Source: Candidatus Firestoneibacteriota bacterium
Lineage (GTDB): Bacteria > Oederibacteriota > D2-FULL-39-29 > JBBTED01
Direction of reading: 5' to 3'
Assembly: GCA_038042445.1 (NCBI GenBank)
Contig: JBBTED010000159.1
Span: 1-29,331, forward strand
Length of the DNA: 29,331 nt
The notes beneath the pieces were generated by a model. It saw only the letters and a list, made by a program, of their open reading frames with translations, ran no database searches and was not told where the DNA came from. This document shows positions 1-24,539 of this stretch, piece after piece. Numbering within the stretch: position 1 is the stretch's first letter; each line of letters opens with the position of its first letter. The translations under genes and the position numbers were made by a program.

Positions 1-234
1 TGCCATAGAAAGTTGTTTTCTGGAATCTGTACCATTAAATATTACATCTTCCATATTACTTCCACGCAATGATTTTGCGCTTTGTTCGCCAAGAACCCAT
101 CTTATAGCATCACTTATATTAGTTTTGCCACATCCATTTGGCCCAATTACTGCTGTAATCCCCGGCTCAAACAATAATTCAGTTTTATCAACAAAGGATT
201 TAAACCCATATACCTCTAATTTTTTAAAATGCAT
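1..234 (-). CDS. smc: Chromosome segregation protein SMC, N-terminal part (continues past the left edge)
   Basis: Manual translation: [68 protein letters not shown]. It has GFKSF, Walker [10 protein letters not shown] and [14 protein letters not shown], typical of SMC. AGGAG RBS at ~244-248. Confidence 0.96.
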
Positions 235-292
235 TTTTCTATTCTCCTATTTAATATAATTTTCGTATATAATGTGGTATTTATTTATAAAA

Positions 293-337
293 CTACTATA
301 TATGGTATATAATCACAAAAAAGTGTATTTTTGTCAA
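293..337 (-). promoter_or_regulatory. sigma70-like promoter of smc with an adjacent NrdR-box-like palindrome
   Basis: Minus strand TTGACA (337-332)-N17-GATTAT preceded by TGn. ctaCtAtATaTgGtat (293-308) resembles the NrdR consensus acaCwAtATaTwGtgt. Confidence 0.5.
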
Positions 338-365
338 GTATTTTTGCGGGAGAAAACTCTAAAAT

Positions 366-800
366 TTATTCTATTACAAAGCCAGTAATTTCTCTCATTT
401 TTTTATTTATTATTATATTACAGTATTCCACACCATTAAGATTAATATACGGTGCAAGAATTTCTTTATAAAAGGGATTTGCATAGTGAGGTGATCGATA
501 GGGTATATATATTAAGGCGTCTATAGGCATGTTTGATAATGTTGGTATTGTTTCAAATTGTATTTTTAGGAAACCGAATTCCTCACTGTCTTTTTCATTA
601 CTAGTTTTTAACCAATTTATAGGTGGAGTTTTGATATCCGGTGAATATATTACAAGCGGAGATTCTAAAAGCAAATTAATAGTTCCATTATAATATGCAT
701 CAATGTTTGGTATATATTTTTTTAAAAAAGGCTTTTGTAACGGGATCGTACACAATGATGCCTTACCTAAACCCTTTTGTATTTTCCCTTTAATTTTCAT
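366..800 (-). CDS. Cassette ORF, distant CTP-dependent (archaeal-type) riboflavin kinase / DUF120-like protein
   Basis: KGKIQKGLGKAS, YNGTINL, RSPH and EILAP resemble the RibK motifs GxVxSGxGEG, PYPGTLN, RTxH and EIIAP. Begins 10 nt after the GTTAGAA core. Confidence 0.55.
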   Translation of the reverse strand: MKIKGKIQKGLGKASLCTIPLQKPFLKKYIPNIDAYYNGTINLLLESPLVIYSPDIKTPPINWLKTSNEKDSEEFGFLKIQFETIPTLSNMPIDALIYIPYRSPHYANPFYKEILAPYINLNGVEYCNIIINKKMREITGFVIE

Positions 801-810
801 TATTTTTTAT

Positions 811-892
811 TTCTAACAGTATAAACTCATCAATTCTTAACAGCTACGGTTTTTCACCACTATTAAAAATCTGATGAAGCGACTTGTTAGGA
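811..892 (-). mobile_element. attC site (82 bp)
   Basis: Minus strand TCCTAAC-aagtcg-CTTCATCA...TGATGAG-tttatact-GTTAGAA. The L''/L' arms pair with one extrahelical base and the spacer is unpaired. Confidence 0.88.
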
Positions 893-901
893 TACATACT
901 T

Positions 902-1501
902 TCAATAACCAAATAGCATGGAAAGGAACCCTTTTTTTCTTTGGTTAGCTGCCAAATTAACTTGGTTTGCTATTTCCTCAATTCTTGCGACATCGCCAGC
1001 ACGAATGTTAAATTGCGGCACAATAACGTTCATATGTTCATCATTTATATCGAGGTTTTTCTGAATCCATTCCAAACCACAAAGCGTCGAGGTATTTGCA
1101 TCTGTTTCATATCCTATTTTTGCTATTTCTTTTATCCTTTTGTTATACACCAGTGCAAAATCTCTAAATTCTTTATCCAACTGTTGTGATGCTAAAAAAG
1201 CGACTCCTTCGTTTGATTTATCTTCAGCTAATTCATACGCTGTCCTAAGAACAATGCTCTTCATACTCTGCTCCATCAAATCTCTCCGTAAAGTGGTATT
1301 GCTAAGATTTGACCAGACGCCATTTGCATAAGCCCAGTTAAGAAAAGAAAATATCTTAAAAATGGTAACGATTTGCTTTTCTGATACTAGCTTATTGACA
1401 GTTTCTTTCACAATTTGCAGAAAGAGTTCTTTGTGTTGATGAGCGTATTTGGCTCCTGCGTCTGCAATAAGATTACATAATTCCACCAAAGCCAAGTTCA
1501 T
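902..1501 (-). CDS. Cassette-encoded hypothetical protein (~199 aa; alternative start 1534)
   Basis: ORF between GTTAGGA (1534-1540) and TCCTAAC (886-892). GGAGG RBS precedes ATG at 1501. No recognisable family. Confidence 0.8.
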   Translation of the reverse strand: MNLALVELCNLIADAGAKYAHQHKELFLQIVKETVNKLVSEKQIVTIFKIFSFLNWAYANGVWSNLSNTTLRRDLMEQSMKSIVLRTAYELAEDKSNEGVAFLASQQLDKEFRDFALVYNKRIKEIAKIGYETDANTSTLCGLEWIQKNLDINDEHMNVIVPQFNIRAGDVARIEEIANQVNLAANQRKKGFLSMLFGY

Positions 1502-1533
1502 TTGGCAATCCTCCGTTTTTATAATCAGTTTCA

Positions 1534-1640
1534 TCCTAACAATTAATATACAAAGTTCCTAGTTACCTGCCTGCCGTCAGGTAGCTCAAAAACTTCCTAT
1601 AAATTTATCAAATTTTATCTCTATATTTGCTGTAAGTCAA
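1534..1640 (-). promoter_or_regulatory. Pc-like promoter followed by an attI-like recombination core
   Basis: TTGACT (1640-1635)-N17-TAAAAT (1617-1612), then a GC hairpin (1561-1586), then AACTTTGTATATTAATT-GTTAGGA. The GTT core has no matching attC left arm. Confidence 0.6.
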
Positions 1641-1656
1641 TAAATACTACTTTAAC

Positions 1657-1676
1657 ACTCAAATGATTTGTTGGGC
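1657..1676 (-). mobile_element. Truncated attC (R'' and start of L'' only)
   Basis: GCCCAAC-aaatcatttgagt lies 6 nt after the ORF stop and is the exact complement of this cassette's start core GTTGGGC. No palindromic right arm follows. Confidence 0.65.
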
Positions 1677-1682
1677 TTTTTA

Positions 1683-2333
1683 TTATTTCATGATATATTC
1701 ATTATATATTTGGTAAAAAGTATTCAGTAGATTTACTCTTTTTCCTTTTGTTTCTTCCTTTTTCAATACCCTCGACAAAGGGACTCTATAAAAAACATCC
1801 GCATGTTGCACATTAGGACAATAGCTTTGCTGTTCACTCATTTCTTTGCGTACTCTTTCATACAACTCACGCTCAGCTTCTTCGTAATATTCTTCACCAA
1901 CTTTGAGAAACATATTTTTTTTGTTTTCAGAATATTCAGAAAATGGAGCATTTTCTTTGATCCATGACTTCATTGGCTCCGTTTCAAGCTGATATAAAGC
2001 AGCATTCATGCCAATAAACTGAATAGCATCTTCAGGCACCATATTATCAACATATTTGCATAAACCCTGCTGTTCATCATTTGGTTCTGCGTCAAGTGTA
2101 TATAAGTAGTCAGCAAGCCATTCAAGATATTCATGGTATTCATTATCAGAAGTACATACGCCAATAAAATTTCCGTATTTATCTTTAGGAACTTCACCAT
2201 AACGATTATCTTTCCCCCATCTCACACCTACATATATAAGGCCGATAGGAACTATTTGTTCGTCCGACCTGCCGGGAAATGCCTTGCGTAAGATGTCCAT
2301 CATAGGACTATTGTTATTTCCATTTTTTTTCAT
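1683..2333 (-). CDS. Cassette-encoded hypothetical acidic protein (~216 aa)
   Basis: ATG at 2333 lies 8 nt after GTTGGGC. The track's start at 2384 falls inside the attC. Confidence 0.8.
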   Translation of the reverse strand: MKKNGNNNSPMMDILRKAFPGRSDEQIVPIGLIYVGVRWGKDNRYGEVPKDKYGNFIGVCTSDNEYHEYLEWLADYLYTLDAEPNDEQQGLCKYVDNMVPEDAIQFIGMNAALYQLETEPMKSWIKENAPFSEYSENKKNMFLKVGEEYYEEAERELYERVRKEMSEQQSYCPNVQHADVFYRVPLSRVLKKEETKGKRVNLLNTFYQIYNEYIMK

Positions 2334-2341
2334 TTTTGTTA

Positions 2342-2403
2342 GCCCAACATTAAAAATTACCTGCCAAGCCAAAAACTTAGTCAAGTGGACTAAATTGTTA
2401 TGA
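2342..2403 (-). mobile_element. attC site (62 bp)
   Basis: TCATAAC-aattta-gtccacttgactaag ttt ttggcttggcaggtaat-ttttaat-GTTGGGC. The upstream ORF stop TAA lies in R''. Confidence 0.8.
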
Positions 2404-3045
2404 AATAATTAATTCATTAGCTAAATATTCCAATAATTTTGTCATCTCATTTTGGTCGCTCTGCAGATGCAATTGCTCTATAATTTCTTGATTATTTATT
2501 TGATCACCTACCATTTCAATAACATATTTGCTGTTTAATATTATAGTATCTCTGTGCTCTATATTATGTACTGGTTCAAAGAATTGTATTGCACCAACTA
2601 AAAGTCTCGCAAAATTAGTTTTAGATAATCTATTTTTTGCACGCAATATAAATACTTCGTGAGAATGCTTATCCATATTATCGTTAAAAAAATCGTCATA
2701 GGCAGTTTTAATATCTTTGATAAAAGTGTAAGGTTTTAGTAAATCTTCAAGAGAGGTAAGTAGTCTGTCAAGAATACCTATAGTAATTAATAGTTTGAAT
2801 TCTTGACTATAGTCCTCTTTATTCATAATACTTATAATATCAATGATCCCAATAGTCATTAACTCCTTAGTAATATAATTTTCTAATTCATATTTTGATG
2901 GAAATCTCTTTTTAATGAGTTTACCGGATTTTGGTCGTTTATTATAGCCAAACGACTGCCATGTAGCATCATTATCCACAATGCCACCTATTATCCCTGT
3001 TAGGATATCTACTAATTGGTTTATATCATTTGTTTTATTTTTCAT
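2398..3045 (-). CDS. Cassette-encoded hypothetical protein (215 aa)
   Basis: ATG lies inside core GTTATGA (3048-3042) and the stop lies inside the complementary TCATAAC. Confidence 0.82.
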   Translation of the reverse strand: MKNKTNDINQLVDILTGIIGGIVDNDATWQSFGYNKRPKSGKLIKKRFPSKYELENYITKELMTIGIIDIISIMNKEDYSQEFKLLITIGILDRLLTSLEDLLKPYTFIKDIKTAYDDFFNDNMDKHSHEVFILRAKNRLSKTNFARLLVGAIQFFEPVHNIEHRDTIILNSKYVIEMVGDQINNQEIIEQLHLQSDQNEMTKLLEYLANELIIS

Positions 3046-3063
3046 AACATCTTATTCCCATAT

Positions 3064-3333
3064 TTATTTTATATCACCCTTACGAAATAGAAATTCCGTA
3101 AAACCTCCGCCACGTGATAGTTCAAATACAGCAATAAACTTAGACTCGAACTTTAATAGCTTGATTGCAGTATCAATACATGGATCAGAAACATATTGGT
3201 CAAAAAAACCGGCTAACTCCTTGGGTATTACAGCGCCTGAAAATTTCTTAATTAGGATACTCTTTGCCATCTCAAAATTACAGTTTTCAAGTTGCTCTCT
3301 AAGTTTCTTTTCATTCAGAAATTCATTTGCCAT
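3064..3333 (-). CDS. Cassette-encoded small hypothetical protein (~89 aa)
   Basis: ATG at 3333 follows GTTAAGA-GGGA (RBS-like). The track's start at 3354 overlaps the attC. Confidence 0.7.
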   Translation of the reverse strand: MANEFLNEKKLREQLENCNFEMAKSILIKKFSGAVIPKELAGFFDQYVSDPCIDTAIKLLKFESKFIAVFELSRGGGFTEFLFRKGDIK

Positions 3334-3345
3334 TATATGGTTCCC

Positions 3346-3404
3346 TCTTAACATAAAAATCAGCCGCCGATCTTTTTGCAGTCAGCTGTATCGCCTCGTT
3401 AAGT
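3346..3404 (-). mobile_element. attC site (59 bp, classic 59-base-element size)
   Basis: ACTTAAC-gaggcga-tacagctgactgc aaaaa gatcggcggctga-tttttat-GTTAAGA. The upstream ORF stop lies in R''. Confidence 0.92.
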
Positions 3405-3884
3405 ACGTTTTTTTGATATGTTTCCTTTTTCAGATTCTTCTTTCACCTTTTCCCACTCTGCCTTCAGCATTACTTGTGTCTCTGAGATTAAATCTCTGAG
3501 AGCTTCTTTAAGCTCGTTATGTTTACTTTTATCTGTTAAACACGGTATCTTATCTACTAATTCAGTAATTTTTTTATCAGCTGTGTCATTTGAATTCAAC
3601 CTAAGTTTTATGATATGTCTTAAATGATCAATCTGTAACAAAACATTTTGTTCATCGGGCTTACCTTGCAAATTTGAAAAAGACCATGTATAGGTCAGCC
3701 CACAAAATTTTGATATATCTTGACGTATCTGCTCACTCCATTCAATGCGTTGCTTTGTAACTGTGTTAATGAAATTAGTTTTTTTCGTTTGTAAATAGTT
3801 GTTAATTAGATTCCAAATACCGAGGATAAATGTTAATCCTATTCCAACGGCATAAACAATATCTTTAGTTTCCATAAGTTTCAT
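3399..3884 (-). CDS. Cassette-encoded hypothetical protein with an N-terminal transmembrane helix
   Basis: Hydrophobic IVYAVGIGLTFILGIWNLI followed by a helical region with KQRIEWSEQIRQDISKF. Bounded by GTTGAGT and ACTTAAC. Confidence 0.82.
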   Translation of the reverse strand: MKLMETKDIVYAVGIGLTFILGIWNLINNYLQTKKTNFINTVTKQRIEWSEQIRQDISKFCGLTYTWSFSNLQGKPDEQNVLLQIDHLRHIIKLRLNSNDTADKKITELVDKIPCLTDKSKHNELKEALRDLISETQVMLKAEWEKVKEESEKGNISKKRT

Positions 3885-3899
3885 TCATTATTCTTTTGA

Positions 3900-3971
3900 A
3901 CTCAACGCCAAAACTCACTGGCGCTTTAGTGCGACAGCAATAAAGTGTCCAATGCAGCGATATTGTTAGAC
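3900..3971 (-). mobile_element. attC site (72 bp)
   Basis: GTCTAAC-aatatc-gctgcattggacactttattgc tgtc gcactaaagcgccagtgag-ttttggc-GTTGAGT, a long imperfect hairpin. Confidence 0.92.
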
Positions 3972-4240
3972 TTTTTATTTATATATTTGCTTTTGAGAGG
4001 GTATTTTTCAGGATGCTCAAGATTGTCTATTTCTAAATCAACATCTAAATCTGGCCAATAGAGATGAAAACCATGAAGTAATTTTACATTTTGGATTGAT
4101 TTTAAGGTTTGGTCTCTAAAATAAGGATATTCATCGAAAGTCAAAAAATACTCTCTTCCTTTTACGAATAACCATATCCCAAACGATGAAATATTTTCAA
4201 CTGATACTGAAATGTTTTTTCCATTCTTTAATGATTTCAT
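3926..4240 (-). CDS. DUF2442 family protein (putative antitoxin)
   Basis: VENISSFGIWLFVKGREYFLTFDEYPYF...LYWPDLDVDLEIDNLEHPEKYPL is typical of DUF2442. The ORF reads into the attC. Confidence 0.85.
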   Translation of the reverse strand: MKSLKNGKNISVSVENISSFGIWLFVKGREYFLTFDEYPYFRDQTLKSIQNVKLLHGFHLYWPDLDVDLEIDNLEHPEKYPLKSKYINKKSNNIAALDTLLLSH

Positions 4241-4291
4241 TTTTATGCTTTCCTGTTTGATGTTGACAATTTCCAATTTCTTTTTGTCAAA

Positions 4292-4558
4292 TTATAATTT
4301 ATCCCATACAGGGATATCTTCTTTTGAATACTTTTTATTCGACATAATATTGTCGTAATTACTTAATATTTCTTCGCGGGTTTTATTCTTCAATATTTTT
4401 TGGATATACTTATTATCTTCAATTTCAACTATTTCTTTTGTAAATGCGAATAATGCAAACTGATTTATTGATACTCCTTGTGTATCAGATATTTTTTCAA
4501 TTTCATTTTTCAACCTTTTTGGTATACGAATAGTTAAAACACTAGCTTTATTTTTCAT
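4292..4558 (-). CDS. Ribbon-helix-helix (CopG/HicB-like) antitoxin
   Basis: VLTIRIPKRLKNEIEKISDTQGVSINQF is an RHH pattern. Overlaps the PIN gene by 11 nt. Confidence 0.85.
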   Translation of the reverse strand: MKNKASVLTIRIPKRLKNEIEKISDTQGVSINQFALFAFTKEIVEIEDNKYIQKILKNKTREEILSNYDNIMSNKKYSKEDIPVWDKL

Positions 4559-4982
4559 TTTTTTTCCTCCAATATTTCAAAAAATTAGATGAGGTGTCAA
4601 TTTTGAGATCGTAAAATTTTAATTCGGCATTATTTTTAAAATCACTAATATTTTGTGTGATAACCCAATCGGCATTGCCGTTTAATGCCAATTCAACAAA
4701 TATATTATCATCTTCATCTTGTAAATTAGGCCGCCATAAGTAATGTGGAATAATCCGTTTACCAATATAAGCAAAATATACCAAAAGGTCATCAACATTT
4801 TCTTTGGTTAAATTTAGCTCTCGAAGATTTCGCTTTAGAACTTCTTCATATTCAGTAATTACTGCTGTTGAAATCAGTAATGTCAATTCCCCTGACCTTA
4901 TTAAGGACAATATCTTATGCGATGCGCCTTCTTCACTATAGATTGCTTGAAATAGCACATTTGTATCTAATACTATTTTCAT
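4548..4982 (-). CDS. PIN-domain toxin (PIN_3-type TA toxin)
   Basis: MKIVLDTNV, EYEEVL, WRPNLQDEDDNIFVELA and VITQNISDF are the acidic PIN motifs. Confidence 0.92.
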   Translation of the reverse strand: MKIVLDTNVLFQAIYSEEGASHKILSLIRSGELTLLISTAVITEYEEVLKRNLRELNLTKENVDDLLVYFAYIGKRIIPHYLWRPNLQDEDDNIFVELALNGNADWVITQNISDFKNNAELKFYDLKIDTSSNFLKYWRKKNEK

Positions 4983-4988
4983 ATTTAT

Positions 4989-5017
4989 ATGATAGTATAT
5001 TTGCTATCACACGTCAA
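4989..5017 (-). promoter_or_regulatory. TA promoter with palindromic operator; probably a leaderless transcript
   Basis: TTGACG (5017-5012)-N17-TATCAT (4994-4989), 6 nt before the ATG. TGATAG-N8-CTATCA (4990-5009) overlaps the -10 and spacer. Confidence 0.75.
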
Positions 5018-5084
5018 GTGGTTTTTGATTTTAATTTTCATGGAGTGTCCCTTTCCGACTAGACGGATAATACTTTAGCTTATA

Positions 5085-5119
5085 AATCTCCCCTAACCCC
5101 TCTTTTTCAAAGAGGGGGA
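5085..5119. repeat. REP-like palindrome family A (CCCCT...AAAGRGGGG)
   Basis: aatctcccctaacccctctttttcaaagaggggga, with similar copies at 8203-8240 and 20676-20708. Confidence 0.8.
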
Positions 5120-5153
5120 ATTCTATAAAAACTTAAAACTATTATTGAGACGT

Positions 5154-8018
5154 CTACTTAATAAGACGTTTGTAGTATTCGTTTAGTAGTTCTTGGTAGG
5201 CTTTGGGGAATTTTTCTTTGAGTGCTTCTATAATGTCTTCTCTGAAACTTTTGGGGGGTTGGTATTCATCACGTGATGGAACTTTTACATAACCTTCTGA
5301 AACTCCCATATCTCCACTCTCTGACATTCCTTTTTGTCCTGGTTTTAAAAATCTAACTTGTGGCTTGCCTGCTCCTGACATTCCTTCACTTTCAATGCCC
5401 TGCATTAATGAATTAAATGCTTCCTTGCTATTAGAAAGATGTTGCAAGGCTTCTGCTTCTTTTGAAAGCGCACTTCCTGTATCAGCGGATTTAAGATTCA
5501 AAGAGGCATTATCCATAGAATCGCCGGCAATCTTCAAATTACTTTTTATATCTTCTACATTTTTGCCAAGTTCTGGATTTGCCAAAGAAAGTTTTTTGCC
5601 AAAATCTTTTACCTTGTCCAACAATTTATCTGTTTTGGATTTAGTTTCTTTTTGATCTGCTGAAAGTTTATTCAATGCTGATTCTTCTTTAGTTCTATAT
5701 TTTTCTTTTAACTCAGTATCTGCTTTTTTAATCTCATTTAAAATATCTATTTCCCTTAATTTTAATTCTTCTGATTGGGCAGTTGCATATAAAAGTGATT
5801 CTATTTTTTTATCAATTTTGTTTTTCTGGGTACTTAAAATTTCTATTTGCTTCTGCACATTTACATCTTCAGATTTATTTTTTGCTAATTCAGTGATTTT
5901 TTTTGACAATTCATTTTGCACTGGCTTATCTCTTTCACCAACACTTTTAGTAATATTCTCCATATTCTCCAAAGAACGAATTGCATTATTAACATACGTC
6001 AATAAATTTCTAAGCTGGCCTATTTGCAGCTCTGCTAATGCAAATGACATATTATTCAAAGCATCATTTCCATTATTCATAAACTGCGGAAAGACTTCAG
6101 GATAATTAAGTTCTATTGGTGCTTTTGATACAAGATTTTTAGTGTCATTTAATATTTTCTGTTGTAAATCAGCAAGTTTTTTTAGCAATTTTTCCTGCTC
6201 TGAAATTAGAGATTCTGTACGGTCTTTATCTTTCTCACCTGTTTTTTCAAATAATGCTTGTTCTTCTTTAATTATGTCCTCAAGTTCTTTTGAGCTTGAA
6301 TTTGCCTCTAAAGACAAACCTCTGTCCTGAAAAAATTTAGCGCGATTCCCTGCTTTTGCCATCATTTCCATTAATGAAGAAAGTTTTTCAGACAAAGCTT
6401 TGGCTAAAGCCAATGCTTTATCGTAATCACCGGAATTCAGACTTTCTTCTAATTCACGTAAAAATTCATTCATCTTCCCAAAATCCATATTTTTTACACT
6501 TTTAGAATCAAAGTATTCCTGTGGAAAAGCCTTTGAAAGCTCAGCAATACTATTTTGCAAGTTCTCCATTAATTGTGCTATACGTTCAATATCGCCTCTG
6601 AGTTTTTTTGTTTTCTCTTCATCCCATTTGCCGGACATTTTCTCTAAATCACTTAAGAAATCCTGTGTTCTTTTGTAGAGACGTTCACTATTTTTTATCA
6701 TATCTTCCAATTTTTCATCGTCTATATCTTGAGTTAAAGCTTCTATCTCTTTATTTACATCATACACCTGTATTTTAATAACATTTGACACGCCTTTATT
6801 AGGTCCAGTAATAACATCATTATCTGTAGCCTCCAAATAAATTTCAATTGCATCTGAAAATTGCAATGCAAGATTAGATAAATCCCATTCTGTTTCAAGA
6901 ATTTCATTTTTAAAAGGATTATTCCTGTTGCATATATTTAATCTGCTTATTTCTTTAGATTTTTTACATACTAAATCAACAGATTTAACTCCAAAATCAT
7001 CACTTGCTTCATAAATTATTTTTATTTTTGATTTTGGCAAAACCACTAAATCCTGTTCAGGTGACAAAATTTTGATTTGTGGATTTTCATCCTTAAGTGC
7101 ATAAACATAATTCACAAATGAACTCTTTGTTGTAATTTTCTTATAATCTTCAGCTTCAATACAATACTCAGCATCTTTTCTAATTTTAAACCATCCTTCA
7201 AGAGTTTTCTCGTCATTTACATTCATTTCAACTGGAACATCTTTTATATGAGAAAGTTTTTCATTGGCATTAAACTTAAGCATTAGAAATGCTTTTTCAA
7301 TTGGTTTATTTGCTTTTGCAGTTATACAAACATTGCTTCCAATAAGAGCTTCTACATTTCCACCATCTTTTCCATTGTAAGGAGCTAATTTTGTATATTT
7401 AGGTGGAAAAATTTTAACAGACACATCTCCAATTTCAGGCATAATTACCTTTACTGCTAAATTTTGTTCAGAATAATTTTTCAAAGGATGTCTTAATTGC
7501 AAAATTGCTTTACTAAAATCTTGTGTGCATATAAAAGCAAAAACAATAATACCAAAAGCAAGCACAGCAGAATATAATAATTTTATCTTAACAGACTTTA
7601 TTGGAAATATTTCTTTTAAATTTATTAACTCGATTTTTTGGGATATATTTTGAATAAAACTATGCGCTAAATCTTCAGATACATTTTGGAATGTATTTTT
7701 ATTAATTTCTCTTTCTATTTGTAGTGCATTTATTAAATCGTCTTTTAGATACTTATTCTTAGCCTGAATTTCAAGTGCCAAATCATCATCTGAAAAACCT
7801 GACAATTCTAAATTAAAGTTGCCTGCAAAAGAAAACAGTAGAATAAAAATATTTATTATTATTGTCCATATTGCAGGTATCCCTATTTGCACACCAATTA
7901 CAAAAAATGAAAAGAATAAAAAAGAAAATAAACAAATATTAGCTAAAAAATCTAATAGTAGTACATAAATTTTTCTTGTTTTTGTATGCTTTATAAATTC
8001 TGCTATTTTGCTGTGCAT
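5154..8018 (-). CDS. DUF4175-like membrane-anchored coiled-coil protein (954 aa)
   Basis: N-terminal TM helices, PPKYT, DENPQIKI...YEASDDFGV...ATDND beta domain, a long coiled coil and C-terminal PKAYQELLNEYYKRL. Confidence 0.75.
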   Translation of the reverse strand: MHSKIAEFIKHTKTRKIYVLLLDFLANICLFSFLFFSFFVIGVQIGIPAIWTIIINIFILLFSFAGNFNLELSGFSDDDLALEIQAKNKYLKDDLINALQIEREINKNTFQNVSEDLAHSFIQNISQKIELINLKEIFPIKSVKIKLLYSAVLAFGIIVFAFICTQDFSKAILQLRHPLKNYSEQNLAVKVIMPEIGDVSVKIFPPKYTKLAPYNGKDGGNVEALIGSNVCITAKANKPIEKAFLMLKFNANEKLSHIKDVPVEMNVNDEKTLEGWFKIRKDAEYCIEAEDYKKITTKSSFVNYVYALKDENPQIKILSPEQDLVVLPKSKIKIIYEASDDFGVKSVDLVCKKSKEISRLNICNRNNPFKNEILETEWDLSNLALQFSDAIEIYLEATDNDVITGPNKGVSNVIKIQVYDVNKEIEALTQDIDDEKLEDMIKNSERLYKRTQDFLSDLEKMSGKWDEEKTKKLRGDIERIAQLMENLQNSIAELSKAFPQEYFDSKSVKNMDFGKMNEFLRELEESLNSGDYDKALALAKALSEKLSSLMEMMAKAGNRAKFFQDRGLSLEANSSSKELEDIIKEEQALFEKTGEKDKDRTESLISEQEKLLKKLADLQQKILNDTKNLVSKAPIELNYPEVFPQFMNNGNDALNNMSFALAELQIGQLRNLLTYVNNAIRSLENMENITKSVGERDKPVQNELSKKITELAKNKSEDVNVQKQIEILSTQKNKIDKKIESLLYATAQSEELKLREIDILNEIKKADTELKEKYRTKEESALNKLSADQKETKSKTDKLLDKVKDFGKKLSLANPELGKNVEDIKSNLKIAGDSMDNASLNLKSADTGSALSKEAEALQHLSNSKEAFNSLMQGIESEGMSGAGKPQVRFLKPGQKGMSESGDMGVSEGYVKVPSRDEYQPPKSFREDIIEALKEKFPKAYQELLNEYYKRLIK

Positions 8019-11790: not shown

Positions 11791-12387
11791 TTATTTAACA
11801 ACATGTATTCCCTTTTTGCTATATTCTTCAAAGTTGAATTTTGGGCTTTGTTTTTCATTATGACAGGATCTACACAATTTTTCACCTGGTTTGCCATTTA
11901 TCATTTTCTTTTTATCGTCTTTTTTTGCAGACATATGTAAACTACCAGGACCATGACATCCTTCGCAAGTAACATTTTTTAAGTTATCAGCATTTTCAGG
12001 ATAACCACCAGTCAAATTATATCCTGTAACATGGCATACAATACACTCTGCATTTTTATCTGATTGTTTGTCTGCTAATGCCTTAAATGCTGATGCATGT
12101 TTTGTTTCAACCCATGATTTATATACTGGAGAATGACACATCATGCATTTTTTTACACCTAAATATTTTGCCTGCGCTGTGGCATCTACATCAGTTTGAG
12201 CTGATGCAAAAGATTTGTTTGTAGCATACTCTTTACCTGCATCAGAAAGTTCTACACTGCCAGCAGGAGAAATATGACATTTAGCACAGGAAAGTTTTTC
12301 TTTGCGGGTATAATCCGGAACTGCAAATACTATAGTTGTAGAAAAAATTATAATTAGTGTAAAGAAAAATATATTGATTTTTTTCAT
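11791..12387 (-). CDS. Exported pentaheme cytochrome c (c554-like domain plus an N-terminal monoheme module)
   Basis: Signal peptide and five CxxCH (CAKCH, CMMCH, CIVCH, CEGCH, CRSCH). YLGxxxCxxCH...WxxTKH...VTCEGCHGPGSLH is the c554 pattern. AGGAGGTG RBS. Confidence 0.9.
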   Translation of the reverse strand: MKKINIFFFTLIIIFSTTIVFAVPDYTRKEKLSCAKCHISPAGSVELSDAGKEYATNKSFASAQTDVDATAQAKYLGVKKCMMCHSPVYKSWVETKHASAFKALADKQSDKNAECIVCHVTGYNLTGGYPENADNLKNVTCEGCHGPGSLHMSAKKDDKKKMINGKPGEKLCRSCHNEKQSPKFNFEEYSKKGIHVVK

Positions 12388-12400
12388 CAATTCACCTCCT

Positions 12401-20198: not shown

Positions 20199-20732
20199 CT
20201 AGAAATACTCTATGCTGGTCTTTTTTAATTCACGAAGAGTATATAACAACTTGTAATCATGGATTTTGAGTTTTTTTACAATTTCATCTACATTTTTTTT
20301 ACATTCTTTTTTTGTTTTTCCATGAACCATTGCATATAAATTATATTGCCAGTTTTTATTTGTAAGTCTTTCATAGCAATGAGTGATTTGAGGGAATTTT
20401 GCTATTTCCATACCTATTTTAGATACATTTGCATCTGGTATTTTACATACAAACATTACATTAAACAAAAAACCGGCTTTATTATGCCTAATTGTAGCTC
20501 CAATTCTTCTTATTAAATTTGTTTTTTTCCATAATAATATTTTTTTAATTAAATAATCTTCTGGAACTTTAAATTTTTGCGCCAGAATTTTATATGGATT
20601 TATTGACTCAGGTAAATCAGAAGAAAGCGCATTGATTATCTTTTTATCTAATTTTGTCAGTTTCATATTTTTAAAAATCCCCCTTACTCCCCCTTTTTCA
20701 AAGGGGGAAAGAAAAAGGAATGATTGTTTCAT
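20199..20732 (-). CDS. ahbB: Siroheme decarboxylase beta subunit (Lrp/AsnC fold); conserved part starts at ATG 20666
   Basis: IRRIGATIRHNKAGF, ITHCYER and WQYNLYAMVHG, in the ahb operon. Confidence 0.88.
   Translation of the reverse strand: MKQSFLFLSPFEKGGVRGIFKNMKLTKLDKKIINALSSDLPESINPYKILAQKFKVPEDYLIKKILLWKKTNLIRRIGATIRHNKAGFLFNVMFVCKIPDANVSKIGMEIAKFPQITHCYERLTNKNWQYNLYAMVHGKTKKECKKNVDEIVKKLKIHDYKLLYTLRELKKTSIEYF
20676..20708. repeat. REP-like palindrome family A between or within ahbA and ahbB
   Basis: aatcccccttactccccctttttcaaaggggga. Confidence 0.8.
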
Positions 20733-21175
20733 ACTTTAAATATTGCGGATAATTTAAATGTTTTTTTTGCTGGCAAAAACAATGTCTCTTTAATTTTTCC
20801 TTTAGTTTGTATGGAATTTATTATTTTTTTAATATCATTTGTTGAAGAAGCAATACAGGTAAACCATATATTATATTCATCTTTTCTTAAATAATTATGT
20901 GTGATTTCTGGATAAGAATTTACTATTTTTGCCACTTTATGGACATTTTTATCTTCCACTTTCAACGCAATAAGCGCACTTGCATAATTTAATTTCTTTT
21001 TATCAAAAAAAGCGCCTATTCTACGTATCATTCCCTGCTTTTTTAGTTTAATTACAGTATTAAAAACTTTTTGTTCTGTTAAACCTAATTTTTGTCCTAT
21101 TGTTTTATAAGGAAATTTACTTACAGGAAATTCTTTTTGAATTTCATTTAAAATTTTCTTATCTGTTTGGTTCAT
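20729..21175 (-). CDS. ahbA: Siroheme decarboxylase alpha subunit
   Basis: IQKEFPV..PY, IRRIGAFFD, ITHNYLR and YNIWFT. Confidence 0.88.
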   Translation of the reverse strand: MNQTDKKILNEIQKEFPVSKFPYKTIGQKLGLTEQKVFNTVIKLKKQGMIRRIGAFFDKKKLNYASALIALKVEDKNVHKVAKIVNSYPEITHNYLRKDEYNIWFTCIASSTNDIKKIINSIQTKGKIKETLFLPAKKTFKLSAIFKV

Positions 21176-22200
21176 AATTCTTTAACTATGGTCTGTATTC
21201 TTTCACCAGATCCATATATGCAATATGGTTCCTCTTTTAAATAATTTCCAGTTTCAGCATATGCTCTGGCACGACAACCACCACACACTGTTTTAAATTC
21301 GCAAATTCCGCATTTGCCTGTTAATTTTTCATCATCGCGAAGCTCCAAAAAAAGTTTGGAGTTGTTCCAGATATCCTGTAATGATTCATTTCTAAGATTT
21401 CCAGCTGCAAGTTGAAAATACCCACAAGGATAAACCTCTCCTTTGTAAGAAGTAAAACATACAGCACTTCCTGCCAAGCATCCTTTACTTAATCTTGATT
21501 GAACATTATTTGATTGATGCAGAATTCTCGTATGATGCGGTGCGCAAGTGATTTTTAATTCAATTTTTGACTTGCCAAAAAATTTACAGAGCAATTCCAG
21601 TGCGTTTTCATGTTCAACAGGAGAAAGTGCATCCCCACTCATTTCTTTTCCTCTTCCTGTTGGTACTAAAAAAAATGGATGCAAAGCTACTGCACCTGAA
21701 TTTTGGGCAAATGCTATCATTTCCTCAAGAAAACAAACGTTTTTTTTGGTAACAGTAAAATTAAATTGAAATGGCAGTCCTGCTTTTTTTAGATTTTCTA
21801 TTCCTGAAAAAGTTAGCTTAAATGCTCCATTCTTGCCGATAAAAGTATCATGAACATTTTCATTAGGCCCATATACACTTATAGCGACCCTGCTAATTCC
21901 ACTGGTCTTCAATTTAATTGCTATTTCTTCTGTGATTAATGTAGCATTACTTGCTAATGCTATATTTAGACCTAATTTTTTACCGTAATTTATAATATCA
22001 AATATATCAGATCTGATTAGTGGCTCACCACCACTTAAAATTATAAGTGGTTTAGAAAAAGCAACTACAGAATCTAAAACCTTGAAACATTCATTAGTGG
22101 TTAATTCATCAGGCGTTCTGTGGTCAATTGCTGAAGCACGACAATGTGGACAAGCTAAATTACATGCTCTTGTTAATTCCCAAAATATTAATCGTAACAT
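21172..22200 (-). CDS. ahbD: Radical SAM/SPASM AdoMet-dependent heme synthase
   Basis: LRLIFWELTRACNLACPHCRA, LVPTGRG, TCAPH, KGCLAG and CGGCRARA. Confidence 0.88.
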   Translation of the reverse strand: MLRLIFWELTRACNLACPHCRASAIDHRTPDELTTNECFKVLDSVVAFSKPLIILSGGEPLIRSDIFDIINYGKKLGLNIALASNATLITEEIAIKLKTSGISRVAISVYGPNENVHDTFIGKNGAFKLTFSGIENLKKAGLPFQFNFTVTKKNVCFLEEMIAFAQNSGAVALHPFFLVPTGRGKEMSGDALSPVEHENALELLCKFFGKSKIELKITCAPHHTRILHQSNNVQSRLSKGCLAGSAVCFTSYKGEVYPCGYFQLAAGNLRNESLQDIWNNSKLFLELRDDEKLTGKCGICEFKTVCGGCRARAYAETGNYLKEEPYCIYGSGERIQTIVKEL

Positions 22201-22228
22201 TTTTTAATTGTTTGTCATTTTAAAGACA

Positions 22229-22255
22229 CTGGATTCCCACTTTCGTGGGAATGAC
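22229..22255. repeat. REP-like palindrome family B (dRS3-like ATTCCC-N8-GGGAAT)
   Basis: ctggattcccactttcgtgggaatgac. Confidence 0.78.
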
Positions 22256-22266
22256 GTATAAAACAA

Positions 22267-23259
22267 CTAACGTATTATGCTTAGTGATTTTGCAACTTCT
22301 TTAGCGTGATATGTAATAATGATATTTGCTCCAGCTCTTTTTATAGAAGTTAAAATTTCGATGATTGTTCTGTTTTCATCCAGCCAACCCATTTTAGATG
22401 CAGCTTTTACCATTGCAAATTCACCGCTCACATTATAAGCTGCAATTGGAATATTAAATTTATCTTTTGCTCTGCGAATTATATCAAGATAAGAAAGTGC
22501 AGGTTTAACCATAATTATATCTGCGCCTTCTTCAATATCAAACTGGATTTCTCTCATAGCTTCATCTGAATTTGCGATATTCATCTGGTATGTTTTTCTG
22601 TCTCCAAATTTCGGTTGTGATTCAGCAGCATCTCTGAATGGCCCATAAAAAGCAGATGCAAATTTGGCAGAATATGACATTATAGGAATATGTGAAAAAC
22701 TTAAACTATCCAATCCCATTCGTATTGATTTAACCATTCCATCCATCATTCCACTCGGAGCTATAATATCTGCGCCTGCTTTTGCCTGTGATACAGCAGT
22801 TTTTGCAATTAATTCTAAACTTGCATCATTATCTATCACAAAACTTTTCCCATGCTTTTTTACAACACCACAATGCCCGTGACTCGTATATTCACATAAG
22901 CAATCATCAGCAATTACAACCAATTTATCAAATTTATTTTTGATTTCAGAGATTGCACGTTGCACAATTCCATCTTTTGCATAAGCTCCTTTTCCTAAAG
23001 CATCTTTTTTATCAGGAATGCCAAACAATATAACAGCAAGTATGTCTAATTCAACAATTTCTTTAACTTCTTTTAATAAATTGTCTATTGAAAACTGAAA
23101 ATTTCCCGGCATAGACAAAATTGGATGTTTTATATTTTTGCCTTCCTTTACGAAAAGTGGCATAACTAGATTTTTCACTGAAATTTGTGTTTGGGTAAAC
23201 ATACTCCTTAGATTTTCAGTATTACGCAATCTTCTTAATCTGGTAATTGGAAAACCCAT
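22267..23259 (-). CDS. hemB: Porphobilinogen synthase (Zn-type)
   Basis: RLRRLR, DCLCEYTSHGHCG, YSAKFASAFYGPFRDA, MVKP and YNVSGE. Confidence 0.97.
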   Translation of the reverse strand: MGFPITRLRRLRNTENLRSMFTQTQISVKNLVMPLFVKEGKNIKHPILSMPGNFQFSIDNLLKEVKEIVELDILAVILFGIPDKKDALGKGAYAKDGIVQRAISEIKNKFDKLVVIADDCLCEYTSHGHCGVVKKHGKSFVIDNDASLELIAKTAVSQAKAGADIIAPSGMMDGMVKSIRMGLDSLSFSHIPIMSYSAKFASAFYGPFRDAAESQPKFGDRKTYQMNIANSDEAMREIQFDIEEGADIIMVKPALSYLDIIRRAKDKFNIPIAAYNVSGEFAMVKAASKMGWLDENRTIIEILTSIKRAGANIIITYHAKEVAKSLSIIR

Positions 23260-23284
23260 ATAATTTTATCTCCTTGGTAAAAAC

Positions 23285-23411
23285 GCCGATAAATCGGCAA
23301 CTACAATAAATTTTATAGCACAATGCACAACCCACTAAAGTGAGTACCCCGAAGCCTTGCCCTCCTTATTAAAATATCCGAGTTTTTTAGCTCAATAAAT
23401 TGAGCAACTAC
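23285..23411 (-). repeat. Two GTAG-type REPs (family C)
   Basis: Minus strand GTAGttgctcaatttattgagc (23390-23411) and GTAGttgccgatttatcggc (23285-23304). Confidence 0.8.
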
Positions 23412-23414
23412 GCA

Positions 23415-24539
23415 TTATATATAGCATGCGGGATCTTCTGCCCACACATCTTGGTAATATGCTTCTGCTCTGACTCTGAAGTTTCCATTGCATATACTTA
23501 GCCATTTACACTCTGCGCATTTACCCTTAAGAAGTTTTTTTCGATTTTTAAGACCTGCCATTAATGGGTCTGAAGTATCCATCCATATTTCGGAAAATTT
23601 ACGTTTATGAATATTTCCAAATGAATAATGCTGCCAGAATTGATCAGCATGAACTTCTCCAAGATTATCAATTTCCGCTATACCTATACCTGTACTATTC
23701 CCGCCATTTATTTCAAGAAGTTTTAAAGCGACTTTCGCTCTTTCTTCATCTTTGGATTTAAGTTTCATATAAAGATAAGGACCATCAGTATGATTATCTA
23801 CTGTTAAAATTTCACATTCAACCTTGTCTTTATGGAATTTTTCACATTTCTCTAATATCAAATCTAATGCCTCTTTTGTTTCTTTATGAGACACATCTTC
23901 TTCTATCATCTTAGTTCCCCTGCCTGCATATACAAGATGATAAAAACAAACTCTTGGAATCTTTTCTTTCTCTATTAAATCAAATATGCCTTTTAAATCA
24001 GAAAAATTATTTTTGTTGATTGTAAATCTTAAACCTACTTTTACACCTGCTTCTATACAATTATGAATTCCTTTTATTGCTTTATTAAACGCACCTTTTT
24101 CACCACGAAATTTATCGTTTGTATTTTCTAACCCATCTATACTTATTCCAACATAAGAAAAACCTGTATCTTTTATTTTTTTTGCAACTTCAGGAGTTAT
24201 TAATGTTCCATTTGTTGAAATAACAGTCCGTAATTTTTGTTGGACAGAATACGCTCCAAGCTCAAACATATCTTCACGAATTAATGGTTCACCACCAGAA
24301 AAAAGTAAAACAGGAGCTTGAAATTCTGCAAGATCATCAATTAATTTTTTTGCAGTTTCAGTTGTAAGTTCATTTGCATCAGGTTTTCCTTTTGCATTTA
24401 TATAGCAATGAACACAATGCAAATTGCACTGCTTTGTCATATTCCATACTACTATAGGTTTTTTGTGTTTATCTGGCCCATAGCGCATAGAATCAGATTC
24501 TGTAATTTTGCCACAATATAATTTACTACAAGCAATCAT
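23415..24539 (-). CDS. ahbC: Radical SAM Fe-coproporphyrin synthase (12,18-didecarboxysiroheme deacetylase)
   Basis: SKLYCG...MRYG, KPIVVWNMTKQCNLHCVHCY, CFYHLVYAGRG, LTVDNHTDG, HADQFW and CNGNFRVRA. Confidence 0.92.
   Translation of the reverse strand: MIACSKLYCGKITESDSMRYGPDKHKKPIVVWNMTKQCNLHCVHCYINAKGKPDANELTTETAKKLIDDLAEFQAPVLLFSGGEPLIREDMFELGAYSVQQKLRTVISTNGTLITPEVAKKIKDTGFSYVGISIDGLENTNDKFRGEKGAFNKAIKGIHNCIEAGVKVGLRFTINKNNFSDLKGIFDLIEKEKIPRVCFYHLVYAGRGTKMIEEDVSHKETKEALDLILEKCEKFHKDKVECEILTVDNHTDGPYLYMKLKSKDEERAKVALKLLEINGGNSTGIGIAEIDNLGEVHADQFWQHYSFGNIHKRKFSEIWMDTSDPLMAGLKNRKKLLKGKCAECKWLSICNGNFRVRAEAYYQDVWAEDPACYI

What the first reader, a model, noticed from the sequence alone, without database searches (positions are those of the whole stretch)
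366..4240. Integron cassette array with no adjacent integrase, loaded with unrecognisable genes, directly upstream of smc
Seen: four full attC-like hairpins (811-892, 2342-2403, 3346-3404, 3900-3971) of different lengths (82, 62, 59, 72 bp) and sequences separate co-oriented ORFs. No tyrosine recombinase ORF lies on either flank (smc; TA pair and DUF4175). Established: such clusters are CALINs and can be acted on in trans by IntI. Inference: an integron-derived gene-capture platform in what looks like a poorly studied low-GC lineage. The heterogeneous attCs suggest cassettes from several donors.
Basis: partly seen in the sequence, partly recalled or inferred. Interest (0 to 1): 0.85.

Follow-up and report, generated by a model that had tools for sequence, protein, structure and literature searches.

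The report
Integrase-less cassette array with orphan attI
This is a real but ordinary leftover of a bacterial gene-capture system (an integron cassette array with no integrase gene found), with one oddity: the integron's own promoter and docking site survive in the middle of the array.

Summary
Confirmed as a CALIN (attC cluster without integrase). No intI was found in this 90%-complete genome, and only 1 of 99 genomes of its phylum has one. That module is homologous to the Pc-attI beside intI in integrons of Ca. Scalindua relatives, and a second intI-less copy lies on contig C47. Both end cassettes are incomplete, and contigs from three studies show no cassette shuffling. The best reading is a frozen remnant: two arrays fused where intI was deleted. 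Most cargo genes belong to unnamed families; one has a CTP-dependent riboflavin-kinase-like fold and one is DUF2442. Small CALINs with unknown genes in intI-less genomes are the common case in print. This scan has already noted orphan Pc-attI modules in at least five other genomes. Interest is modest.

The parts
1..234 (-). 5' end of smc (flank, cut by the contig end; continues at the end of contig C2)
   Evidence: SMC_N hit; overlap with C2 end
309..337 (-). sigma70-like promoter in front of smc (smc probably does not depend on the array)
   Evidence: consensus match 10/12; function not tested
366..800 (-). last cassette-like ORF, 144 aa, CTP-dependent riboflavin-kinase-like fold; no attC downstream
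   Evidence: Atlas structure rows TM 0.65-0.70 to PF01982 clusters, one row over the naming bar; no Pfam hit; no matching R'' downstream
811..892 (-). attC A (82 nt), best preserved
   Evidence: 27.0 bits; rough fold probability 0.10
902..1501 (-). 199-aa all-helical cassette gene, first cassette behind attI; unnamed family
   Evidence: 78 hits including itself, others at 49-83% identity, start fixed by homologues; own R'/R'' match 7/7; homologues directly behind attC in 2 of 7 loci; pLDDT 88.8, no clear fold match
1534..1559 (-). attI core, crossover between 1540 and 1539
   Evidence: 22-nt motif exact in G173 and G143 (intI divergent beside it) and G174, 1 mismatch in G149 (truncated intI)
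1568..1587 (-). about 20-nt hairpin-forming insertion between Pc and attI, absent from the homologous modules
   Evidence: gap in alignments; hairpin
1612..1640 (-). Pc promoter (-35 at 1640-1635, 17-nt spacer, -10 at 1617-1612)
   Evidence: upstream-only homology to G173 and G143 modules z 6.7-6.8, 0 of 500 shuffles; activity not tested
1650..1676 (-). attC stub of the 216-aa cassette: R'' + 13 nt + GTT heptamer; the hairpin body is missing
   Evidence: 8.6 bits, 52 model positions deleted; R'' matches the cassette's own 5' R' 7/7
1683..2333 (-). 216-aa cassette gene, unnamed family
   Evidence: 24 hits at 47-95%; closest fetched locus L052 is followed by an attC-like site with the same R'' (read by eye); no Atlas match
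2342..2403 (-). attC B (62 nt), decayed
   Evidence: 12.4 bits, E 0.42; rough fold probability 3e-8
2398..3045 (-). 215-aa all-helical gene, second ORF of a two-ORF cassette; unnamed family
   Evidence: 59 representatives; no shared Pfam among 38 members; pLDDT 89.9, best Z 7.3 to a Cbp3 homologue, inconclusive
3064..3333 (-). 89-aa ORF, first ORF of the two-ORF cassette
   Evidence: no family hit; homologues not searched
3346..3404 (-). attC C (59 nt)
   Evidence: 28.4 bits; rough fold probability 0.03
3399..3875 (-). 158-aa cassette gene with a hydrophobic N-terminal stretch; unnamed family
   Evidence: 41 hits including 2 identical to the query, others 44-84%; R'/R'' 6/7
3900..3971 (-). attC D (72 nt); the DUF2442 ORF reads 46 nt into it
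   Evidence: 27.2 bits
3926..4240 (-). DUF2442 gene, remnant of a DUF4160-DUF2442 cassette whose 5' part is lost
   Evidence: PF10387 1e-13; no matching R' upstream
4197..4255 (-). C-terminal remnant (about 18 codons) resembling DUF4160, overlapping the DUF2442 start
   Evidence: compared by eye with the intact pair on C59; other organisms' contigs diverge at 4249
4292..5017 (-). PIN-domain toxin (4548-4982) and 88-aa probable antitoxin (4292-4558) with own promoter (4989-5017); no cassette boundary found
   Evidence: PIN_3 and TIGR00305 over cut-off; antitoxin only weak hits; promoter

Best explanation
A frozen integron remnant made of two fused cassette arrays. Shown: six ORFs between 902 and 4240 sit in integron cassettes bounded by attC sites, and 1534-1640 is homologous to the Pc promoter and attI of a long-N-terminus IntI family. 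Inferred history: an integron of that family entered this lineage and its IntI loaded cassettes at attI (199-aa gene first, then the 144-aa gene). Further cassettes lay on the far side of intI. A deletion then removed intI together with the body of the neighbouring attC, fusing the attC left arm to a point about 16 nt upstream of the Pc -35 box. Both outer cassettes later lost their ends. Inferred present function: Pc transcribes the two downstream genes, the PIN toxin-antitoxin promoter may read into the upstream genes, and the toxin-antitoxin pair may help retain the region. Nothing moves unless an IntI arrives in trans; then attI and attC A and C could still be used. I hold the identity as CALIN plus Pc-attI at about 0.95; the confidence given is for the whole history.
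For: Covariance hits with correct strand. Each cassette's 5' R' matches its own R'' at 14 of 16 variable positions, the best of 24 pairings. A profile built only from the G173, G149 and G143 modules finds site E (E 0.0074) and C47 (E 0.014) as the two best hits in the 2.8-Mb genome; the next is E 5.9. Two of the four 0-1-mismatch motif loci have IntI directly beside them and a third has a truncated one; all four are followed by attC hits. No IntI in G000 by TIGR02249 or by tblastn with 8 IntI proteins. The junction at 1534-1676 is spanned without differences by contigs of two studies (X2 record 2, X4 record 10), so it is not a misassembly. intI loss is a listed origin of CALINs (PMC4889954).
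Against: No intI remnant lies at the junction, so its former presence here is inferred only from the homologous loci. The junction falls at a GTT heptamer, as an integrase crossover would. Cassettes on both sides of intI in one orientation are not the textbook layout. A second intI-less module on C47 needs a second, independent loss. The genome is only 90% complete. The permutation test has only 24 outcomes (p = 1/24). No relative shares the DUF4175-smc interval, so no earlier state can be read.
Confidence: 0.58

Rival explanations
1. The integrase itself detached Pc-attI from intI. The GTT heptamer at 1650-1656 is a secondary (attG-type) crossover: either cassettes were inserted just upstream of Pc, or a circle carrying Pc-attI plus its first cassettes was excised and inserted into another array. 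The attC at the junction then lost its hairpin by slippage. Pc-attI would be a portable promoter and docking module.
For: The stub reads as R'' + 13 nt + GTT and is aligned end to end by the attC model. A collapsed 32-nt attC with both R boxes exists in the class relative G005. A GTT lies 16-18 nt before the -35 box in G143 and G173 too. There are two intI-less copies in one genome. IntI insertion at genomic attG sites and excision outside the insertion point are published (10.1101/2022.09.11.507474, passages). Unchecked scan notes describe many orphan modules per genome elsewhere.
Against: The 13 nt after R'' fit a spacer plus L'' box equally well, which points to plain deletion. The C47 copy has no GTT in that register and is explained by an IS 11-12 nt upstream of its -35 box. 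GTT triplets are frequent (93,624 in the genome). G149 lacks the GTT at that place.
Confidence: 0.22
2. intI exists in this organism but is missing from the assembly, and the array is a live satellite served in trans.
For: The assembly is 90% complete in 181 contigs and is broken at many IS ends. Further attC sites lie on short contigs (C51, C24) and on C95. Half of published CALINs are in genomes with intI (PMC4889954 section 20).
Against: No joint at any att site in 4 runs of 3 studies, and long pieces carry 0-1 differences (contigs drop rare variants). attC B is decayed and both end cassettes are broken. intI was found in 0 of 12 same-class genomes and 1 of 98 other genomes of the phylum.
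Confidence: 0.15
3. The sites are chance palindromes or terminators between ordinary accessory genes, not attC.
For: Weak free-folding scores at two of four sites; no Rfam match (I recall that Rfam has no attC family).
Against: Model scores and strand. Three of the six top genome-wide hits of a separate PWM scan lie in this 2.6-kb stretch, all above the best null score of 23.3. R'/R'' matching and attI homology.
Confidence: 0.02

Closest known systems
[quoted passage not shown] 2016, PMC4889954 (passages and section 20 read)
   Same: At least two attC, no intI nearby, small size (83% of CALINs have fewer than six attC; mean 5), mostly unknown cargo, genome without intI (half of CALINs), no intI pseudogene nearby (95%).
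   Different: Here a Pc-attI can be identified, and it lies inside the array, fused to an attC stub. That paper states that attI is unknown for most integrons and searches only for class 1-3 sequences, so it could not see this.
Integron platform of long-N-terminus IntI integrons in relatives of a Ca. Scalindua genome (G173, G143, G149, G174)
   Same: Homologous -35 and -10 boxes, spacer and attI core; followed by attC cassettes.
   Different: No intI, a 20-nt insertion between Pc and attI, cassettes upstream of Pc, and apparently a different phylum (inferred: intI in 30 of 61 genomes there, 1 of 99 in the window's phylum).
Class 1 fused cassettes in which attC is replaced by part of attI1 (blaGES-1/aacA4), PMC4670013 (passages)
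   Same: A truncated attC joined to attI sequence in mid-array; the truncated site was not an integrase substrate there.
   Different: There only about 6 bp of attC remain, only part of attI1 is described and intI1 is present. Here the whole Pc-attI is kept and intI is not found.
attG insertion and SALIN/small CALIN formation, Loot et al., 10.1101/2022.09.11.507474 (passages)
   Same: Explains cassettes scattered in chromosomes away from intI, like the single sites on C95 and C24.
   Different: Does not, in the passages read, describe Pc-attI moving with cassettes.
Gene-less cassettes with promoter activity, 10.1101/2023.11.21.568050 (search listing and start of abstract only)
   Same: An internal promoter within an array.
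   Different: Site E is platform sequence (Pc-attI), not a cassette closed by its own attC.

Membership tests
CALIN | [quoted passage not shown] | tested here: met
   three at 27-28 bits, one at 12.4 bits, within 3.2 kb; own model, not IntegronFinder's
CALIN | No intI within 4-10 kb | tested here: met
   none on contig C159; on the smc side the contig ends at 1 and smc continues on C2
CALIN | attC sites co-oriented with short promoterless ORFs, with R''-L''-L'-R' layout on the bottom strand | tested here: met
   site B only weakly
CALIN | Call by IntegronFinder's own covariance model | not testable with these tools
   program and model not available
Complete integron | intI (tyrosine recombinase with the IntI insertion) next to attI | tested here: not met
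   5 tyrosine recombinases in G000, none over the TIGR02249 cut-off (best 90 bits against 265) and none on C159
Complete integron | attI site | tested here: met
   by homology to intI-adjacent sites; recombination not tested
Complete integron | Pc promoter upstream of attI | tested here: met
   by consensus and homology; activity not tested
Complete integron | Active excision or shuffling of cassettes | tested here: inconclusive
   no joints at att sites in contigs of 4 runs; contigs drop rare variants
CTP-dependent riboflavin kinase (PF01982), for ORF 366-800 | Fold | tested here: met
   TM 0.65-0.70 between predicted models
CTP-dependent riboflavin kinase (PF01982), for ORF 366-800 | Pfam profile match and kinase activity | tested here: inconclusive
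   no Pfam hit at E 0.01, no PDB sequence match; activity not testable; works-like claim only

The most novel reading that the evidence does not exclude
Pc-attI platform modules are themselves mobile. IntI cuts at a secondary GTT just upstream of Pc and moves the promoter and docking site, with its first cassettes, into other arrays and other phyla. This would seed intI-less genomes with several expressed, reloadable docking sites, and many 'CALINs' would be satellite platforms and not dead remnants.
Probability: 0.2. Interest if true: 0.65.

Novelty: new member of a known kind. Interest (0 to 1): 0.3.

Why it matters
As a CALIN it adds one more example, in a lineage where intI is nearly absent from the genomes searched. 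The useful by-product is a defined attI/Pc family: a 22-nt motif tied to intI in other genomes, found twice without intI here. attI sites are unknown for most integrons (PMC4889954), so such a motif makes it possible to test how often CALINs keep a promoter and docking site, and whether those sites were left by deletion or moved by the integrase. The four unnamed cargo families are ordinary candidates for cassette function screens.

Tried and rejected
Rfam: 0 matches in 1-6000. Site E as one long attC: rejected, no L-box partner; my first coordinates were off and were corrected. A first attI family (7 loci, L093-L103) resembled site E only loosely: MAFFT did not align it, and a PWM chain ranked it 7th among 93,624 GTT sites with chance-like neighbours. 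The 38-nt insert guessed from that family was wrong; the closer family gives about 20 nt. Six 2-mismatch motif hits and three were dropped as chance (control pattern: 6 and 3 hits). A HEPN-like reading of the 215-aa protein was rejected, as the motif is not conserved in 38 aligned members. The 89-aa and 215-aa ORFs as one split gene: unlikely, since homologues start at the 215-aa start. Fold searches for the 215-aa and 199-aa models gave no Foldseek match at E 0.001 and best Z of 7.3 and 6.3, both to 6rwt, which is inconclusive for helical proteins; their profiles do not align. PADLOC and NCBIfam: nothing over cut-off for the six unnamed cargo ORFs. The 144-aa protein was not found with this query in 401 genomes, so its cassette status is untested. 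The attI motif gave 0 hits in viral contigs. DUF4175-smc synteny: in 11 of 11 same-class regions fetched, smc does not follow DUF4175; 9 have a purF-like gene there (label recalled from N-terminal sequence). Of 9 loci of 216-aa homologues only L052 shows an attC-like site right behind the gene, and the model with default filters did not report that site (7 of the 9 loci were scanned). No RNA holder was listed. Run X8 has no cover at 1405-2340, but no contig joins across the gap. The single joint 4102-4682 in X2 has a 22-nt side and is not at an att site. The intI in G042 lies among phage-like genes and shows no link to this locus. The genome-wide model search scored only 150 of 574 candidates and missed site C, so genome attC counts are lower bounds. 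Literature searches for a described mid-array Pc-attI in a CALIN. 'multiple attI' gave 0 papers. Of the 20 listed of 37 hits I read only PMC3518468 (passages). Supplements were not consulted, so absence from print is not established.
Full report
Setting. The window is the whole contig C159 of a 2.81-Mb assembly in 181 contigs, 90% complete, GC 31.9%. Its nearest listed relatives are only of the same class. The stretch is held by 11 listed runs of 4 studies; those with a habitat label are groundwater metagenomes. All genes from 8018 to 1 are on the minus strand. In order: DUF4175, a PIN toxin-antitoxin pair, DUF2442, six ORFs without family, and the start of smc.

Observation. Free folding was unconvincing: only one strand of 811-892 reached z -2.5. 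I therefore built a covariance model from 14 attC sites of other genomes, 12 from arrays beside a TIGR02249-positive intI and 2 from loci of cargo homologues. The fifth hit is a 27-nt stub at 1650-1676 (8.6 bits), and the best hit outside the array is 8.2 bits. A separate PWM scan of the genome put three of the sites among its six top hits, above the best score of 23.3 from the reversed genome; it did not list site D. The 5' core site of each cassette matches its own R'' at 14 of 16 variable positions, the best of 24 possible pairings. A rough constrained-fold probability gives 0.10 (A), 0.03 (C), 0.005 (D, register uncertain) and 3e-8 (B), against quartiles of 0.03, 0.14 and 0.36 for 56 reference sites.

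Integrase. G000 has five tyrosine recombinases, none on this contig and none over the IntI cut-off. tblastn with 8 IntI proteins finds only those five loci. In the phylum, 1 of 99 genomes has intI, and 0 of the 12 other same-class genomes. An unassembled intI is not excluded.

The fifth junction. A first attI family matched only loosely, but that scan revealed a second copy of the module at the start of contig C47. A motif search of all held loci then showed nearly the same 3' end in L079, an intI locus. A 22-nt consensus from these three was sought in 132 genomes of the class of G143. It was exact in G173, G174 and G143 and had one mismatch in G149; six 2-mismatch hits equalled the control count and were dropped. 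G173 and G143 have IntI divergent from the site, G149 has a 211-aa truncated IntI, and G174 is 37 nt from a contig end. All four are followed by attC hits. G143 is not independent, as it went into the motif. Leaving the motif out, the upstream part of site E still aligns with G173 and G143 (z 6.7 and 6.8, 0 of 500 shuffles) and more weakly with G149 (z 3.0, 7 of 500). A profile from those three genomes alone finds site E and C47 as the two best hits in G000 (E 0.0074 and 0.014; next 5.9). Site E differs by a 20-nt insertion. Homology begins about 10-16 nt upstream of the -35 box; directly before that lies the attC stub of the 216-aa cassette. Among the 99 genomes of the window's phylum, exact matches occur only in G000. 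At C47 an IS end lies 11-12 nt upstream of the -35 box. A 9-nt target duplication joins it to the end of C72, where a folP-like gene (label recalled) and no intI lie.

Dynamics. Four of the 11 holder runs were laid, from 3 studies; X2 shares a study with the possible source run, which was left out. There is no joint at any att site. Long pieces over 94-3287, 1437-2509, 2482-4046 and 3667-5111 carry 0-1 differences. 77 rows of differences were not shown, and contigs hide rare variants. The DUF2442 cassette has lost its 5' boundary and all but about 18 codons of a DUF4160-like partner. The 144-aa gene has no attC behind it. No relative shares the DUF4175-smc interval (11 of 11 regions). Other attC sites occur on C51 (two), C95 and, weakly, C24, and the class relative G005 has its own attC cluster with no intI in the loci fetched.

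Cargo. The 199-aa, 216-aa and 158-aa proteins have 78, 24 and 41 hits (self included where listed) on mostly short contigs, with top non-self identities of 83%, 71% (one 95% fragment aside) and 84%. Homologues of the 199-aa gene lie right behind attC sites in a Nitrospirales and a Ca. Scalindua genome, 2 of 7 loci. The 215-aa family has 59 representatives and no shared Pfam. The 215-aa and 199-aa proteins fold confidently as all-helical, without a clear structural match. The 144-aa protein has a CTP-dependent riboflavin-kinase-like fold. No defence or resistance family reached a cut-off.

Mechanism. Shown: cassettes, attC sites, a Pc-attI by homology, and no intI in the assembly. Established: IntI recombines folded attC bottom strands with attI or attC at G/TT and can use secondary sites (PMC3518468 and PMC10127599, passages). 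CALINs can be mobilised in trans (10.1101/2025.06.18.660453, passages). Inferred: a deletion removed intI and the body of one attC and fused two arrays (0.58); or the integrase itself detached Pc-attI at the GTT heptamer (0.22); or intI is merely unassembled (0.15). Expression from Pc and from the toxin-antitoxin promoter is inferred, not measured.

Comparison and verdict. By the definition in PMC4889954 (passages and section 20) this is a typical CALIN: 83% have fewer than six attC, half lie in genomes without intI, 95% have no intI pseudogene nearby, and most cargo is unknown. It fails the complete-integron test on intI. An attC stub joined to attI sequence has a class 1 precedent (PMC4670013, passages). 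My searches showed no description of a whole Pc-attI inside a CALIN, but they were narrow and supplements were not seen. Unchecked notes of this scan report orphan Pc-attI modules in at least five other genomes; these are leads, not support. Verdict: real, a new member of a known kind, with one testable oddity. Interest 0.3.

Noticed in passing
window 5089-5117: REP-like hairpin repeat between DUF4175 and the PIN pair; 14 copies in the genome at up to 4 mismatches and very high contig depth in metagenomes, so widespread in other organisms.
   Followed up: partly
L132:67-950 (G000:C47): Second intI-less Pc-attI with a two-ORF cassette and a decayed attC, preceded by an IS end and followed by a partial copy of that end and a RelBE-like pair (label recalled).
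   Followed up: yes
G000 contig ends C14, C21, C37, C47, C72, C89, C108, C109, C139, C170: A multicopy IS with terminal inverted repeats and 8-9-nt target duplications breaks the assembly; the duplications allow contigs to be paired, e.g. C47-C72.
   Followed up: partly
L113 (G000:C51), L116 (G000:C95), L133 (G000:C24): Further attC sites: two on the 1-kb contig C51, one on C95, one weak on C24.
   Followed up: partly
L150 (G005:C82:2777-2808) and neighbours: attC cluster in a same-class genome, with near-identical attC copies, ORF-less stretches and a collapsed 32-nt attC.
   Followed up: partly
window 902-935: The 199-aa family ends in a conserved basic-aromatic tail that resembles a MinD-type membrane-targeting helix (resemblance recalled, not tested).
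   Followed up: no
window 366-800: The riboflavin-kinase-like fold also occurs fused to glycosyltransferase family 9 proteins in an Atlas cluster of 275 members.
   Followed up: no
window 55: All four laid runs read C where the window has A, inside smc; possibly a consensus error near the contig end.
   Followed up: no
window 11791-12390 and 20199-24539: Multiheme cytochrome c gene and a siroheme-decarboxylase / radical-SAM / ALAD heme-synthesis cluster.
   Followed up: no
L079 / L126 (G143): About 200 nt of repeat-containing DNA separates intI from Pc-attI in G143 compared with G173, so the intI-Pc gap takes insertions in this family.
   Followed up: no
L044 (G042:C4): The only intI found in the phylum lies among phage-like genes (labels recalled) with no cassette array evident.
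   Followed up: no
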